This document shows positions 31,401-35,818 of a stretch of 64,000 nt of DNA, piece after piece. Source of the DNA: Pseudomonadota bacterium (lineage in GTDB: Bacteria > Pseudomonadota > Gammaproteobacteria > Burkholderiales > Burkholderiaceae_C). The position numbers and the translations under genes were made by a program. Below the pieces are notes generated by a model. That model searched no databases. It saw nothing but the letters and a program-made list of their open reading frames with translations, and was not told where the DNA came from. The DNA lies in NCBI GenBank assembly GCA_019351955.1, contig JABBOE010000001.1, positions 8,234-72,233 of the forward strand, given 5' to 3'. Positions within the stretch are counted from its first letter, which is position 1. Every line of letters starts with the position of its first letter.

Positions 31401-32039
31401 TCAAGGGGCCAGGCGCTGCAGCTGCCACATGCCGTCCGAGCGCAGCTGGTAAACCAGTCGGTCGTGCAGACGCGACGGACGACCCTGCCAGAATTCCCAG
31501 GCGTCCGGCGTCAGACGATAGCCACCCCAGTGTGGCGGGCGCGGCGGGTTGAGGCCGAATTTCAAGCCAAACTCGGCAGCGCGCTTGATGAGCACGCTGC
31601 GCCCTTCAATCGGCTGGCTCTGCTCGGACGCCCAGGCACCAATGCGCGAGGCCAGCGGCCGGCTTGCAAAATAGGCGTCGGACTCCTCGGCGCTCACCTG
31701 CTCCACGCGGCCCTCGATGCGCACGACGCGCTCAAGCTCTACCCAATGGAATTGCAGGGCGGCAAAGGGATCGGCAGCGATCTCGCGTCCCTTGCGGCTC
31801 TTGTAGTTGCTGTACCAGACGATGCCGCGTGCATCAAAACCTTTGATCAACACCACACGCGTGGATGGCCTTCCCCCCTCGCCCACCGTGGCCACCGTCA
31901 TCGCGTTCGGCTCCGGCACCTGCGCCTGCACGGCTTCGTGCATCCAGCGCTCAAACAACGCCATTGGGTCGGCCTGCGCGTGCGTCTCGTCGAGCTCGGC
32001 GCGGGTGTAGTCTTTGCGTAAATGGGCCAGTGTGTGCAT
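31401..32039 (-). CDS. pdxH: pyridoxamine 5'-phosphate oxidase
   Basis: About 212 aa from ATG 32039. C-terminal [16 protein letters not shown] signature and RVVLIKGFD block. Confidence 0.92.
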
Positions 32040-32113
32040 GGTGCGAGTATAGAAACTCACACAACGAGCGGGTCGGCGCGCCGGGATCGCCTCGACCGCA
32101 CCGGCCTATCACG

Positions 32114-32743
32114 TCAAAGCCCGTGACGCTTGGCCAGGGCAACGACGCGCTCGACCGCACGATCGCGGATACCCGCCTGGCGCAGCGCATGGGCGGTGCG
32201 CACCACGTACTCGAGCGTGGTGCCAAAGCGTCCCCGGCGGTGGCGAAGGATGTGCAGCAACTGGCTCTCGTCCAGTGCGCCCGTGTAGCTCGGGCTGGTG
32301 CGCGGCAGCGTGAACGCCAGCGCCTGCACCACGCCGTGCGGGGTGTGGCAGCGCAGCCAGCGCGGCTCGTAGACGGCGCGCGGCATTTCGCGCTTCCACA
32401 GCAGCCGCAGTTCATGCTCAGCCTGCGGGCGCGGCACCCGCAGCACGATGCCTTGGCAGGATCCCCCGCCCATCAGCGCGAACACCAGACCCGGTTCGTG
32501 TTCGGTACCCCGGTTGATGCGCGACCACATGCACAGGCAGCGTTTGTGGCCCCACACCCGCGCGGGCAAGACCTCGCAGTGGGCAATCTCCGGATTCCAC
32601 AGCAGCGAGCCGTAACCAAACACCCAAAGGTCGCCGGCAGGCATGCTCGCCAGAATGGCCTCGAGCATGGCTTGAGGATCCCGGCCAGGGATTTGCAGCA
32701 GCCCCGGATGTTCGCCAGCCATGGATGCGTCGCACTCGCTCAT
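32114..32743 (-). CDS. chaC: ChaC-family gamma-glutamylcyclotransferase
   Basis: ORF 32114..32818 trimmed to ATG 32743 (GGAG 6 nt upstream). LWVFGYGSLLWNPE signature. Confidence 0.8.
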   Translation of the reverse strand: MSECDASMAGEHPGLLQIPGRDPQAMLEAILASMPAGDLWVFGYGSLLWNPEIAHCEVLPARVWGHKRCLCMWSRINRGTEHEPGLVFALMGGGSCQGIVLRVPRPQAEHELRLLWKREMPRAVYEPRWLRCHTPHGVVQALAFTLPRTSPSYTGALDESQLLHILRHRRGRFGTTLEYVVRTAHALRQAGIRDRAVERVVALAKRHGL

Positions 32744-32759
32744 CCGTCGCTCCGAGAAA

Positions 32760-32779
32760 CCTCCCCGTTCAGGGGGAGG
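32760..32779 (+). repeat. left-end subterminal hairpin of the tnpB element
   Basis: CCTCCCC-GTTCAG-GGGGAGG, a perfect 7-bp stem. It shares the core CC.TTCAGGG.AGG with the right-end hairpin. A second small hairpin, GCCGAC-CAACC-GTCGGC, follows. Confidence 0.55.
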
Positions 32780-32847
32780 AGGAAAGGAGTGCCGACCAAC
32801 CGTCGGCAGGGGTTGCATGGATGGCTGTTGTTTTGTACAGTCTTGGC

Positions 32848-34011
32848 ATGCAGGTTAAGCGCACCTATCGCTTTCGCTTCGACCCAACGCCCGAGCAGGC
32901 ACACATCCTGGCTCGCACGTTTGGATGCGCGCGGTTTGCGTACAACCACATGCTGCGGCTGCGCAGCAATGCCTGGATGCAGCGCCAGGAACGTGTCGGC
33001 TATCACGAGACCTCCGCGGCGCTGACGGCGCTCAAGAAGACGCCCGAGCACGCCTGGCTGAACGAGGTGAGCAGCGTGCCCGTGCAGCAAGCGGTGCGGC
33101 ACCTGAACACCGCATTCCTGAACTTCTTCGCCAAGCGGGCCCGGTACCCGTCCTTCAAGCGCAAGGACGGGCCGCAATCGGCCGAGTACACCACCAGCGC
33201 ATTCAGATGGGACGCGGGCCGGCGCGAGTTGCGCCTGGCCAAGATGGATGCCCCCCTGGACATGCGCTGGTCGCGCACCTTGCCCAAAGCGGCCAGGATC
33301 ACGACCGTCACCATCTCCAGGGACGCGGCGGGGCGGTATTTCGCCTCACTGCTGTGTGACGATGTGGTCACACCCAAGCCGCAGGCCAGCGGCCAGGTTG
33401 GCATCGACCTGGGGCTGACCCATTTCGCGATCCTCTCCAGTGGCGAGAAGGTCGCATCCCCCAAGGCGTTTCGCCGCTGCGAAGCGCGACTGGCGGTTCG
33501 CCAGCGCCGCTTGGCGCGGGCCAAGCTCGGATCGAAGAACCGGGCGAAGTTGAAGGCATCGGTTGCGCGGTTGCATGCGCACATCGCGGACGCCCGCAGT
33601 GACTTCCTGCACAAGCTCTCGACTCGGCTGATCAGCGAGAACCAAGTGATCGCCATCGAGACACTGTCCGTGAGCAACATGCAGCGCAACCGCAGTCTGG
33701 CGAAATCCATCAGCGACGCCAGCTGGTCGGCATTCGTCAGGCAGCTGGAGTACAAGGCGCAGTGGTACGGGCGCACATTGATCGGCATCGATCGCTGGTA
33801 TCCGTCCAGCAAGCGATGCTCGGTGTGCGGGCACACGAAGGCGTCGATGCTGCTGTCGGTGCGCACCTGGGATTGTCCCGAATGCGGCGCGCACCACGAC
33901 CGCGACATCAACGCTGCGCGCAACATCTTGGCCGCAGGACTTGCGGTGTCAGCCCATCGAGAGTCTGTAAGTCCTGTGTTGCTGCAAAGCAGCATGGGCG
34001 GGTCTCAGTGA
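32848..34011 (+). CDS. tnpB: TnpB (IS605 OrfB-family RNA-guided endonuclease / transposase accessory protein)
   Basis: ORF 32725..34011 trimmed to ATG 32848. N-terminus MQVKRTYRFRFDPTPEQAHILARTFGCARFAYN. RuvC-like blocks GIDLGL and VIAIETLSV. Zinc finger CSVCGH...CPECGAHHDRDINAARNI. 387 aa. Confidence 0.9.
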   Translation: MQVKRTYRFRFDPTPEQAHILARTFGCARFAYNHMLRLRSNAWMQRQERVGYHETSAALTALKKTPEHAWLNEVSSVPVQQAVRHLNTAFLNFFAKRARYPSFKRKDGPQSAEYTTSAFRWDAGRRELRLAKMDAPLDMRWSRTLPKAARITTVTISRDAAGRYFASLLCDDVVTPKPQASGQVGIDLGLTHFAILSSGEKVASPKAFRRCEARLAVRQRRLARAKLGSKNRAKLKASVARLHAHIADARSDFLHKLSTRLISENQVIAIETLSVSNMQRNRSLAKSISDASWSAFVRQLEYKAQWYGRTLIGIDRWYPSSKRCSVCGHTKASMLLSVRTWDCPECGAHHDRDINAARNILAAGLAVSAHRESVSPVLLQSSMGGSQ

Positions 34012-34020
34012 AGTGGGAAT

Positions 34021-34040
34021 CACCTTCCTTCAGGGAGGTG
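34021..34040 (+). repeat. right-end hairpin of the tnpB element (probable 3' stem of the omega/reRNA scaffold)
   Basis: CACCTTCC-TTCA-GGGAGGTG, an 8-bp stem with one G:T(U) pair. It lies 10 nt after the tnpB stop and is followed by AGCAGTCAA. Confidence 0.5.
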
Positions 34041-34201
34041 AGCAGTCAAGGATGAAGCCTGTTTAGCCTTCGATCATGCAGTGCGCTGCGGACGATGGCC
34101 TCAACCGGCCATGGTGTCCCCGGATGGATGCGACCGGGCCTGAATCGGCGCTCATCTCGGTTCGCCCCCGCGCCCTCACGCACGACTCGGCTTGTCGCCT
34201 C

Positions 34202-35689
34202 TCACCGCGGCAACTCCGAGTGCCCCATCAGAAACTGGTCGATCGCGCGCGCCGCCTGGCGGCCCTCGCGGATGGCCCACACCACCAGGCTTTGCCCACG
34301 CCGCATGTCACCGGCAGCAAACACCTTGGCCACGTTGGTGGCGTAGCCGCCGTCCTCTTCGGTGACAGCCTTGGCGTTGCCCCGTGCATCGTGCTCCACG
34401 CCGAAGGCATCAAGCACGGGAGCCAGCGGATGCACGAAACCCATGGCCAGCAACACCAGGTCGGCCTGCATCGTGAACTCGCTACCCGGAACTTCCTGCA
34501 TGCGACCGTCCTTCCACTCGACGCGGCAGGCCTGAATCGCTTTGACCTTGTTTTTGTCCTTACCGGTTCCGGGCAAAAACGCCTTCGTCGCCACCGACCA
34601 GTCGCGCCCGCAACCTTCTTCGTGGCTGCTGGAGGTGCGCAGCTTGATCGGCCAGTAGGGCCACACGAGGGGCTTGTTCTCGGTTTCAGGCGGCTGGGGC
34701 AGCAGTTCGAACTGCGCCACGCTGGCCGCGCCGTGGCGGTTGCTGGTGCCCACGCAATCAGACCCCGTATCGCCGCCACCAATCACCACGACCTGTTTGC
34801 CGGCCGCCGAGATCTGGCCCCTGAGCTTGTCGCCGGCGTTGATCTTGTTCTGCTGTGGCAGGAACTCCATGGCGAAATGGATGCCTTCGAGTTCGCGCCC
34901 AGGCACCGGCAGGTCCCGCGGATGCTCCGACCCGCCAGCCAGCAGCACGGCATCAAACTCAGCCAGCAGCGCCTCCGGGCTCCGGTGCTCCCGGGCCCAG
35001 TTGGCGACCGTCGCACCGGGGCCATCCTTGGGCATGTCCCCCACCAGCACGCCAGGTACGAAGCGCACCCCCTCGGCCTGCATCTGCTCGATGCGGCGGT
35101 CGATGTGGTGCTTCTCCATCTTGAAGTCAGGGATGCCGTAACGCAGCAAGCCGCCGATGCGGTCATTCTTCTCGAACACCGTCACGTCATGCCCGGCGCG
35201 CGCAAGTTGCTGCGCGGCTGCCAGGCCGGTCGGGCCTGAGCCGACCACGGCGACGCGCCTGCCCGTCTTGTGCGCAGGCGGCTGCGGCGCCACCCAGCCC
35301 ATCTGCCAGCCCTTGTCGATGATGGCGTGCTCAATGGACTTGATCCCCACCGGCGCCTCGTTGATGCCCAGTGTGCAAGCCGCCTCGCAGGGCGCGGGGC
35401 AGATACGCCCGGTGAATTCGGGGAAGTTGTTGGTGGAGTGCAGCACATCCAGGGCATGCTTCCAGTCGCCCTGCCACACCAGATCGTTGAAGTCGGGGAT
35501 GATGTTGTTGACCGGGCAGCCGCTGTTGCAAAACGGAATGCCGCAGTCCATGCAGCGCGCGGCCTGCACCTTGGCCTTGTCGTCCGACAACTCGTGGACA
35601 AACTCCTTCCAGTGCTTGAGGCGTGCGACAGGAGGCTCGTAGCTTTCTTCCTGGCGTTCGAATTCCATGAATCCGGTGACTTTTCCCAT
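34202..35689 (-). CDS. gltD: glutamate synthase (NADPH) small subunit
   Basis: ORF trimmed to ATG 35689, preceded by AGGAAGGA. N-terminus [13 protein letters not shown]. Fe-S motif CMDCGIPFC and dinucleotide motif [14 protein letters not shown]. Confidence 0.95.
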
Positions 35690-35818
35690 GGTCCTTCCTT
35701 GGTCTGCGATAGCCGGCACGTGCGGGCTTATCGTCTCAATCCTGATTGGCAGTCATCGACGCGCGCACCCGAAGCGCGCACGCGCGGGTCAGCCTTCGGG
35801 TGCGCGCGGCGTCGTTCG

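What the first reader, a model, noticed from the sequence alone, without database searches (positions are those of the whole stretch)
32744..34075. Solo TnpB (IS605-family, no TnpA) with matching end hairpins, inserted against the chaC start codon
A complete 387-aa TnpB, with RuvC-like blocks and a CxxC...CxxC zinc finger intact, lies between chaC and gltD without any Y1 transposase. Both ends carry related hairpins with the shared core CC.TTCAGGG.AGG: left CCTCCCC-GTTCAG-GGGGAGG and right CACCTTCC-TTCA-GGGAGGTG. The right hairpin is followed by AGCAGTCAA, reminiscent of the TCAA right-end cleavage site of IS608-type elements. In characterised TnpB systems the omega/reRNA is transcribed from the 3' end of tnpB through this right end, and its guide is the flanking DNA. 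On that model the guide here would start around GGATGAAGCCTGTTTAGCC (34050 onward). An intact, possibly still programmable nuclease is therefore plausible. The left end begins only about 10-15 nt upstream of the chaC ATG and its GGAG. The element has thus displaced the native chaC promoter, and chaC must be expressed from within or through the element.
Basis: partly seen in the sequence, partly recalled or inferred. Interest (0 to 1): 0.6.

Follow-up and report, generated by a model that had tools for sequence, protein, structure and literature searches.

The report
TnpB-only transposon docked on chaC start
A 1.3-kb mobile element that carries only an RNA-guided nuclease gene (tnpB) and its guide-RNA scaffold sits exactly against the start codon of chaC; the element is an ordinary known kind, but its relatives in several phyla also sit on gene start codons and bring a ribosome-binding site with them.

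Summary
The element is window 32744-34049 (1306 bp). It is a tnpA-less IS200/IS605 (IS1341-group) insertion sequence in a Thiomonas-like betaproteobacterium. Two same-genus genomes keep the empty site ...CTCGCTCAT|GGAYGAAGCC..., so it inserted 3' of TCAT without target duplication and ends in TCAA.

TnpB (32848-34011, 387 aa) matches ISDra2 TnpB at E=7e-75. D187/E271/D353 and the CxxC...CxxC zinc finger are intact. The last ~145 nt (33904-34049) form a structure kept through compensatory changes across 28 relatives, which fits an omega-RNA scaffold. The genome holds diverged paralogues and one intact Y1 TnpA with a near-identical left-end hairpin, a plausible helper in trans.

One correction: TCAT is the reverse complement of chaC's own ATG+A. 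The element therefore abuts the start codon directly, and the GGAG 6 nt upstream belongs to the element.

One extension: of 54 non-redundant relatives, about 80% abut a real start codon in the same way, and 51 of 57 left ends carry a Shine-Dalgarno core 4-10 nt before it.

This scan noted the same docking pattern before on other DNA (P1-like phages, Microcystis, Rhodococcus). I found no paper describing it.

The parts
32740..32743 (+). TCAT: host target site and predicted TAM, 5' of the left end. On the minus strand it is the chaC start codon ATG plus A.
   Evidence: It is present in the empty sites of G022 and G003. 56 of 57 left-end copies are preceded by TCAT. The chaC start MSECDAS is conserved in G003, G007 and G022, while the internal Met8 is not conserved in G007.
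32744..34049 (+). The whole element: a 1306-bp tnpA-less IS200/IS605 (IS1341-group) insertion sequence.
   Evidence: The homology boundaries with paralogues on C78, C24 and C11 are sharp. The sequence is precisely absent from the orthologous site in two same-genus genomes, with no target duplication.
32744..32847 (+). Left end. It holds the CTCC block 32750-32753 (GGAG on the minus strand, 6 nt before the chaC ATG), GAAA 32756-32759 directly 5' of the hairpin foot, hairpin 1 at 32760-32779, GGAG 32786-32789 (a possible lower-stem partner of CTCC), hairpin 2 at 32791-32807, and a hand-read tnpB promoter (TTGCAT 32813-32818, 17-nt spacer, TACAGT 32836-32841) that ends 6 nt before the ATG.
   Evidence: Sequence read. 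The hairpin and a 3-bp lower stem covary in 33 copies. A Shine-Dalgarno core lies 4-10 nt before the ATG in 51 of 57 copies, against 7.4 +/- 2.5 in shuffles. The promoter is read by eye only; the consensus scan found none.
32848..34011 (+). tnpB, 387 aa. RuvC residues D187, E271 and D353; zinc finger C324/C327 and C343/C346.
   Evidence: Pfam hits PF12323, PF01385 and PF07282. phmmer to ISDra2 TnpB (8h1j, 8bf8, 8exa) gives E=7e-75 over residues 6-368, with GIDLG, IAIETL and HDRDINAA aligned to the catalytic motifs.
33904..34049 (+). Predicted omega (right-end) RNA scaffold. It overlaps the last ~35 codons of tnpB and the right end. Helices: 33904-06/34045-47, 33931-36/33942-47, 33961-66/34001-06, 33973-75/33996-98, 33979-83/33988-92 and 34020-26/34035-41.
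   Evidence: RNAalifold on 28 copies gives 31 pairs, 19 of them with compensatory changes. 95.1% of cells are paired, against 33-55% when the partners are slid, and 0 of 500 shuffles reach the observed values. There is no Rfam match.
34017..34049 (+). Right-end transposition signals: GAAT 34017-34020 5' of the hairpin foot, the hairpin 34021-34040, the linker AGCAG, and the cleavage tetranucleotide TCAA 34046-34049.
   Evidence: All copies end in GTCAA (one in GTCAC) exactly where homology stops.
34050..34069 (+). Predicted guide of the omega RNA (GGATGAAGCCTGTTTAGCC...). This is the former 5' flank of chaC, read antisense to chaC.
   Evidence: It is the first bases after the right-end boundary. 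In empty sites the same sequence follows TCAT directly. A guide length of 16-20 nt is assumed from ISDra2 (established knowledge).
32114..32743 (-). chaC (209 aa, intact). All of its native 5' untranslated region has been replaced by the element's left end.
   Evidence: Pfam ChaC, profile positions 1-174 of 176. Empty-site comparison.

Best explanation
Window 32744-34049 is a recently inserted, structurally complete, non-autonomous insertion sequence of the IS200/IS605 family (IS1341 group: tnpB only).

Shown:
- It integrated 3' of the tetranucleotide TCAT without duplication.
- It ends in TCAA.
- It carries covarying subterminal hairpins at both ends.
- It encodes a TnpB close to ISDra2 TnpB, with all catalytic and zinc-binding residues.
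- Its 3' ~145 nt fold into a conserved structure.

Inferred from the characterised family:
- A Y1 TnpA supplied in trans excises and inserts the top strand as single-stranded DNA. An intact TnpA sits on contig C115 with a near-identical left-end hairpin.
- TnpB processes its own transcript into an omega RNA whose guide is the flank from 34050.
- The TnpB-RNA complex cuts TCAT + GGATGAAGCC..., that is, the empty chaC site, so the copy is restored by recombination after excision.

Because TCAT is the complement of ATGA, the element landed exactly on the chaC start codon, facing away from chaC.

Inferred, less certain:
- chaC is now transcribed through the element from promoters upstream (gltBD or the old spacer), or from inside the element.
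- chaC is translated from the GGAG that the left end places 6 nt before the ATG.
- This built-in ribosome-binding site is a family trait that makes start-codon insertions tolerable.
For: - Ends and empty site.
- Domains and catalytic residues.
- Hairpin and scaffold covariation.
- Recent mobility: G003 has the empty chaC site but 97-98% identical element fragments on other contigs. A 97% identical copy in MAG REEB268 has a different right flank.
- Helper in trans: an intact TnpA with HVHLL and SPSYF motifs on C115, next to the hairpin CCTCGCC-GTTCAG-GGCGGGG.
- IS608 recognition code (my own knowledge of Barabas 2008): the right end pairs GAAT with TCAA and the left end pairs GAAA with TCAT. 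They differ only at the Watson-Crick fourth position (read).
- Start-codon docking: 38 of 54 left flanks meet a strict criterion, against a background of 17% (binomial P=8e-18) or 6.5% (P=6e-33). By the simpler criterion of an ORF of at least 100 aa, 43 of 54 do.
- These are real N-termini: 9 of 10 tested ORFs have a Pfam domain starting at profile position 1-3 within residues 1-9.
- Shine-Dalgarno core: present in 51 of 57 copies.
- Solo left-end remnants are kept as the 5' leader of nrdR in four species, while in other genus members homology starts exactly at the nrdR ATG.
Against: - No expression or activity data exist for TnpB, the omega RNA or chaC.
- There is no Rfam match for the scaffold.
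- The consensus scan found no promoter on either strand, so the source of chaC transcription is unknown.
- On the chaC-sense RNA the predicted fold pairs the GGAG with an upstream CUCC. The same CTCC/GGAG pair forms a lower stem of the left-end hairpin, and gammaproteobacterial copies replace it with GCGC/GCGC. The motif may therefore be conserved partly for structure and not for translation.
- The C115 TnpA belongs to an element whose left-end guide (CAAG) differs, and cross-mobilisation is untested.
- The copies used for the counts are related, so the statistics overstate independence.
Confidence: 0.85

Rival explanations
1. The start-codon association is a by-product and not an adaptation. 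The element simply needs TCAT. In GC-rich genomes a large share of ATGA sites that do not interrupt a coding sequence are start codons. The pyrimidine block in the left end is conserved for hairpin structure or TnpA binding, not as a ribosome-binding site.
For: - The window copy's CTCC pairs with GGAG 32786-32789 as a lower stem.
- Copies L064 and L078 replace it with GCGC/GCGC and keep the pairing.
- A 3-bp lower stem covaries.
- 6.5% of all ATGA sites in this genome are already start-like, and most other sites lie inside genes, where insertions would be purged.
Against: - In actinobacterial, Nitrosospira and Chloroflexi copies the purine-rich block lies outside the lower stem, yet it is kept 5-8 nt from the ATG.
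- An insertion that strips a gene of its ribosome-binding site should be purged like an intragenic one, yet about 80% of copies sit there.
- The neighbouring IS605 on C115, with a different target, has no such block.
- Solo left ends persist only next to gene starts.
Confidence: 0.3
2. The copy is an immobile relic or a domesticated TnpB (TldR-like RNA-guided repressor) that now regulates chaC or gltD and is no longer a transposon.
For: - There is no tnpA in the element.
- The guide region is the former chaC leader.
- The position is tightly linked to a host gene.
Against: - The RuvC D/E/D triad is intact, whereas TldRs are nuclease-dead.
- Both ends are complete.
- The site is empty in the closest species.
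- Near-identical copies sit elsewhere in sister genomes.
- With the element in place, the TAM is 1.3 kb from the guide match, so the resident genome holds no target.
Confidence: 0.05
3. The element belongs to the IS607 type (serine-recombinase partner) or another TnpB-bearing family and not to the Y1-dependent IS200/IS605 type.
For: TnpB also occurs in IS607 elements, and no transposase is linked here.
Against: - It has subterminal hairpins with guide tetranucleotides.
- It inserted 3' of a fixed tetranucleotide without duplication.
- Its right end finishes in TCAA, as in IS608.
- The closest solved relative is ISDra2 TnpB.
- A Y1 TnpA with the same hairpin type is present in the genome.
Confidence: 0.02

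Closest known systems
ISDra2 (Deinococcus radiodurans) TnpB with its omega/right-end RNA; structures 8h1j, 8bf8, 8exa
   Same: - The same three-domain TnpB, aligned over residues 6-368 at E=7e-75, with D/E/D and the zinc finger conserved.
- The guide-RNA scaffold overlaps the 3' end of tnpB and the right end.
- The guide is the flank beyond the right end, and the TAM is the left-end target site.
   Different: - ISDra2 carries its own tnpA and targets TTGAT. This element has no tnpA and targets TCAT.
- Scaffold sequence homology to the ISDra2 omega RNA was not tested.
IS608 (Helicobacter pylori), the mechanistic model of IS200/IS605 transposition
   Same: - Subterminal hairpins.
- A right end of GAAT ... 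hairpin ... TCAA.
- Insertion 3' of a tetranucleotide without duplication.
- The left-end guide and target differ from the right-end pair only at the base-pairing fourth position (GAAA/TCAT against GAAT/TCAA).
   Different: - IS608 targets TTAC and encodes tnpA.
- The comparison with IS608 rests on my recollection of the published code, not on an alignment made here.
IS1341 group of IS200/IS605 (tnpB-only elements), including the archaeal and bacterial copies with sense-overlapping 3' transcripts (PMC4615843)
   Same: - tnpB is the only ORF.
- A non-coding RNA is expected at the 3' end of tnpB.
- Copies are multiple and diverged within one genome.
   Different: No published description found mentions systematic docking on start codons or an outward ribosome-binding site in the left end.
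ISGst5 (IscB) with TAM TTCAT (Meers et al., bioRxiv 10.1101/2023.03.14.532601)
   Same: The same TCAT-type target/TAM 5' of the left end.
   Different: It has a different nuclease (IscB) and its guide RNA lies upstream of the gene. The paper does not discuss start codons.

Membership tests
IS200/IS605 family, IS1341 group | TnpB (OrfB) with HTH, RuvC-like and zinc-ribbon domains as the only ORF; no tnpA inside the element | tested here: met
   Pfam PF12323, PF01385 and PF07282. PF01797 hits occur only on contigs C115 and C104. ORF list.
IS200/IS605 family, IS1341 group | Subterminal imperfect palindromes at both ends instead of terminal inverted repeats | tested here: met
   Hairpins at 32760-32779 and 34021-34040. 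Compensatory changes.
IS200/IS605 family, IS1341 group | Insertion 3' of a fixed tetra- or pentanucleotide, without target-site duplication | tested here: met
   Empty sites in G022 and G003 read ...TCAT|GGAYGAAG.... TCAT precedes 56 of 57 copies.
IS200/IS605 family, IS1341 group | Repeated in genomes at different sites (mobility) | tested here: met
   Paralogues at 78-84% identity on C78, C24 and C11. Copies 97-98% identical at other sites in G003 and MAG REEB268.
IS200/IS605 family, IS1341 group | Mobilised by a Y1 HUH TnpA acting on single-stranded DNA | not testable with these tools
   An intact TnpA exists in the genome with a near-identical left-end hairpin. Cross-mobilisation is inferred.
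TnpB RNA-guided nucleases (ISDra2-like) | RuvC D/E/D triad and CxxC...CxxC zinc finger intact | tested here: met
   D187, E271 and D353; C324/C327 and C343/C346. Aligned to 8h1j.
TnpB RNA-guided nucleases (ISDra2-like) | Structured guide-RNA scaffold overlapping the tnpB 3' end and the right end | tested here: met
   31 consensus pairs, 19 compensatory, 95% of cells paired against 33-55% in slid controls. Transcription was not tested.
TnpB RNA-guided nucleases (ISDra2-like) | TAM-dependent, guide-dependent DNA cleavage | not testable with these tools
   Predicted TAM TCAT and guide from 34050. This needs an interference assay.
TldR (nuclease-dead TnpB-derived repressors) | Loss of RuvC catalytic residues, loss of transposon ends, fixed genomic position | tested here: not met
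   The triad is intact, the ends are complete, and the site is empty in sister species.

The most novel reading that the evidence does not exclude
TCAT-targeting tnpB-only elements are adapted to dock on start codons. Their target is the complement of ATGA, and their left end carries an outward-facing Shine-Dalgarno sequence at the right spacing. The host gene therefore loses its whole leader but stays translatable, which makes gene starts a safe harbour. When the rest of the element decays, the ~60-nt left end is kept as the gene's new 5' leader, as seen at nrdR here. This would be a transposon-borne portable ribosome-binding site conserved from Betaproteobacteria to Actinobacteria and Chloroflexi. 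I found no published description of it.
Probability: 0.5. Interest if true: 0.65.

Novelty: new member of a known kind. Interest (0 to 1): 0.45.

Why it matters
The element itself adds a well-delimited TnpB/omega-RNA pair to the catalogue. It has a 4-nt TAM (TCAT), a known empty site, a defined guide and a candidate helper TnpA, so it is directly usable for interference or excision assays.

The wider point is the docking pattern. If the left end really substitutes for the host ribosome-binding site, this family rewires the translation signals of many host genes. Here these are chaC, nrdR, a DsbB-like gene and a fumarase/aspartase-like gene. In relatives they include regulators, dehydrogenases and lipoproteins. 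The family also leaves solo left ends behind as permanent 5' leaders. That would explain how a non-autonomous, nuclease-carrying transposon persists at low cost in compact genomes.

Tried and rejected
- Rfam search of 32000-35000 at E<=1 found nothing.
- The consensus promoter/terminator scan of 32650-34250 found nothing on either strand. The tnpB promoter I give is read by eye, and no outward promoter for chaC can be named.
- A crude GC3-based gene caller, meant to count intergenic ATGA sites, covered only 47% of the genome and was discarded. The "non-disruptive sites" null is therefore only a rough estimate: about 1,000 start-codon sites against a few thousand intergenic ones, or 20-25%.
- The domesticated TldR reading was rejected because the RuvC triad is intact and the site is empty in relatives.
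- The IS607 type was rejected on end architecture.
- Literature searches for start-codon docking of IS1341/TnpB elements found only TTCAT as the TAM of ISGst5 IscB.
- A look-up of the TnpB sequence in earlier scan notes found no look-alike stretch.

Full report
**What is there.** ORF listing and direct reading show a 387-aa ORF at 32848-34011 (+). It lies between chaC (32114-32743, minus) and gltD (34202-35719, minus). Pfam assigns the ORF HTH_OrfB_IS605, OrfB_IS605 and Cas12f1-like_TNB. It assigns the neighbours ChaC and the glutamate-synthase small-subunit domains. AGCAGTCAA ends at 34049.

**Exact limits.**
- The window's own genome (3.87 Mb, 282 contigs) holds paralogues at 84% (C78, C24) and 78% (C11). 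It also holds right-end fragments at contig ends and several left-end-only matches.
- Aligned by their ends, all copies begin with TCAT-CCGT... and end with ...GAGCAGTCAA. The flanks are unrelated.
- A search of 40 relatives found the orthologous chaC-gltD region at 93-95% identity in G022 and G003 with the element precisely missing.
- The junction in those genomes reads ...CGCACTCGCTCAT|GGAYGAAGCCTGCTCA....
- The element is therefore 32744-34049 (1306 bp). TCAT is host sequence and nothing was duplicated.
- G003 has the empty site but carries 97-98% identical fragments of the element on other contigs. A 97% identical copy in MAG REEB268 has a different right flank. The insertion is recent and the lineage is, or was lately, mobile.
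- The gltD protein is 84-85% identical to Thiomonas species, so the host is a Thiomonas-like betaproteobacterium.

**The nuclease.** phmmer against solved structures gives ISDra2 TnpB (8h1j, 8bf8, 8exa) at E=7e-75 over residues 6-368. GIDLG, IAIETL and HDRDINAA align to the RuvC motifs, and both CxxC pairs are present. In this protein these are D187, E271, D353, C324/C327 and C343/C346.

**The guide-RNA scaffold.**
- I aligned the 200 nt up to the right end from 28 copies. They come from Betaproteobacteria, Gammaproteobacteria, Chloroflexi and Actinobacteria.
- RNAalifold gives 31 pairs, 19 of them with compensatory changes.
- 95.1% of cells are paired, against 33-55% when the partners are slid by 1-3 columns. 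None of 500 shuffles reaches the observed values.
- In the window the helices span 33904-34047, overlapping the poorly conserved C-terminal tail of TnpB and the right-end hairpin.
- This is the architecture of a TnpB omega RNA.
- Rfam has no matching family. Transcription is not shown.

**How it moves.**
- No transposase is in the element.
- The genome has one intact Y1 TnpA on C115, with a full-length PF01797 match and the HVHLL and SPSYF motifs. It is divergent from a 36%-identical tnpB.
- The left-end hairpin of that element, CCTCGCC-GTTCAG-GGCGGGG, is nearly the same as in the paralogues of our element. Its right end also finishes in GTCAA.
- In the window copy the four bases 5' of each hairpin foot are GAAA (left) and GAAT (right). 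The cleavage tetranucleotides are TCAT and TCAA.
- This is the IS608 guide/target arrangement, with only the Watson-Crick fourth position swapped. That comparison rests on my own knowledge of the published IS608 code.
- Mobilisation in trans by the C115 TnpA is a reasonable inference but is untested.

**Relation to chaC.**
- TCAT (32740-32743) is the complement of ATGA, and that ATG is the chaC start. The N-terminus MSECDAS is conserved in G003, G007 and G022, whereas the next Met is not conserved in G007.
- The element thus replaced every base upstream of the chaC start codon.
- The old 152-nt gltD-chaC spacer, with whatever promoter it held, now lies beyond the right end.
- On the chaC strand the left end reads ...GGUUUCUCGGAGCGACGG-AUG, with GGAG 6 nt before the ATG.
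- No consensus promoter or terminator was found on either strand. chaC must be transcribed through the element (antisense to tnpB) or from an unrecognised internal promoter.
- A fold of the chaC-sense RNA pairs this GGAG with an upstream CUCC, so its accessibility is uncertain.

**A family-wide pattern.**
- Reading the left flanks of the other copies in this genome showed ORFs starting at the same ATG. They are NrdR (MKCPFC...), a DsbB-like protein, a 484-aa fumarase/aspartase-like protein and a 305-aa secreted protein.
- I fetched 80 relatives of the TnpB from named genomes and located left and right ends with nhmmer models.
- Of 57 non-redundant left ends, 56 are preceded by TCAT.
- Of the 54 with enough flank, 38 pass a strict test: an ORF of at least 100 aa in a coding-type frame starting at that ATG. 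By ORF length alone, 43 pass.
- The background for all 21,945 ATGA sites in this genome is 17% for the strict test and 6.5% for a start-like test. The binomial P values are 8e-18 and 6e-33. Relatedness of the copies inflates these figures.
- Pfam on the first 150 residues of ten such ORFs shows that nine have their domain starting at profile position 1-3 within residues 1-9. The domains are MerR, LacI, adh_short (twice), Pyr_redox_2, Peptidase_M55, PEP_mutase, BphC_D1 and Semialdhyde_dh. These are real N-termini.
- A Shine-Dalgarno core (GGAG, GAGG, AGGA or AAGG) lies 4-10 nt before the ATG in 51 of 57 left ends, against 7.4 +/- 2.5 in shuffles. The spacers peak at 5-7 nt.

**Caveat on the Shine-Dalgarno block.** In betaproteobacterial copies the CTCC block is also one strand of a lower stem of the left-end hairpin. 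Two gammaproteobacterial copies replace it with GCGC/GCGC. A 3-bp lower stem covaries. In actinobacterial, Nitrosospira and Chloroflexi copies, however, the block lies outside that stem and is still kept.

**Solo left ends.**
- Three sites in this genome (C45 at nrdR, C171, C217) hold only the first ~60 nt of the left end, directly against the gene start.
- The nrdR remnant is shared by G000, G003, G007 and G022.
- In the other 24 genus members, homology to the nrdR region starts exactly at the ATG.
- This fits long retention of the left end as the gene's leader after the rest of the element was lost.

**Prior knowledge.**
- Full-text searches found no paper describing start-codon docking or an outward ribosome-binding site for IS1341/TnpB elements. 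TTCAT is known as the TAM of ISGst5 IscB.
- Earlier notes of this scan describe the same pattern on other DNA: P1-like phage-plasmids, Microcystis and Rhodococcus. I reached the reading before seeing them, and they are not independent proof.

**Verdict.** The element is a new member of a known kind. The docking and ribosome-binding-site idea is the only part that could be new biology. I put it at about even odds.

Noticed in passing
G022:C2 (L222, L224, L226, L230) and G022:C5 (L225): In the complete same-genus genome G022, an IS110-family transposase gene (388 aa) sits at the same position about 10 nt inside the left end. This is seen in four tnpB copies and in the nrdR solo left end, always with the junction ...CATCAC|ATCTCCGAGAAACC. 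It looks like an IS110-type element that specifically targets the left end of this TnpB family.
   Followed up: partly
G000:C45:14339-14395 (L135), G000:C171:1259-1317 (L138), G000:C217:3017-3076 (L139): Solo left-end remnants of ~60 nt (both hairpins, no tnpB, no right end) lie directly against the start codons of nrdR, a 305-aa secreted protein and a 59-aa ORF. The nrdR remnant is shared by four species of the genus.
   Followed up: partly
G000:C115:8500-10360 (L009, L018): A complete IS605-type element with an intact Y1 tnpA (minus strand) divergent from a tnpB 36% identical to the window's. Its left-end hairpin is nearly identical to that of the window family, but the guide 5' of the hairpin differs (CAAG). 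The right end finishes in GGATGTCAA.
   Followed up: partly
window 32813-32850: The hand-read tnpB promoter (TTGCAT, 17-nt spacer, TACAGT) ends only 6 nt before the ATG. Relatives show TTGACA-N17-TACGAT at the same distance. The tnpB mRNA may be leaderless or nearly so.
   Followed up: no
whole genome G000: About 20 TnpB-like matches of several divergent clades occur (28-87% identity to the window's), many at contig ends. This element class is a main cause of assembly breaks in this genome.
   Followed up: no
It did not appear in my PF01797 search at E<=0.01. I did not examine it.
   Followed up: no
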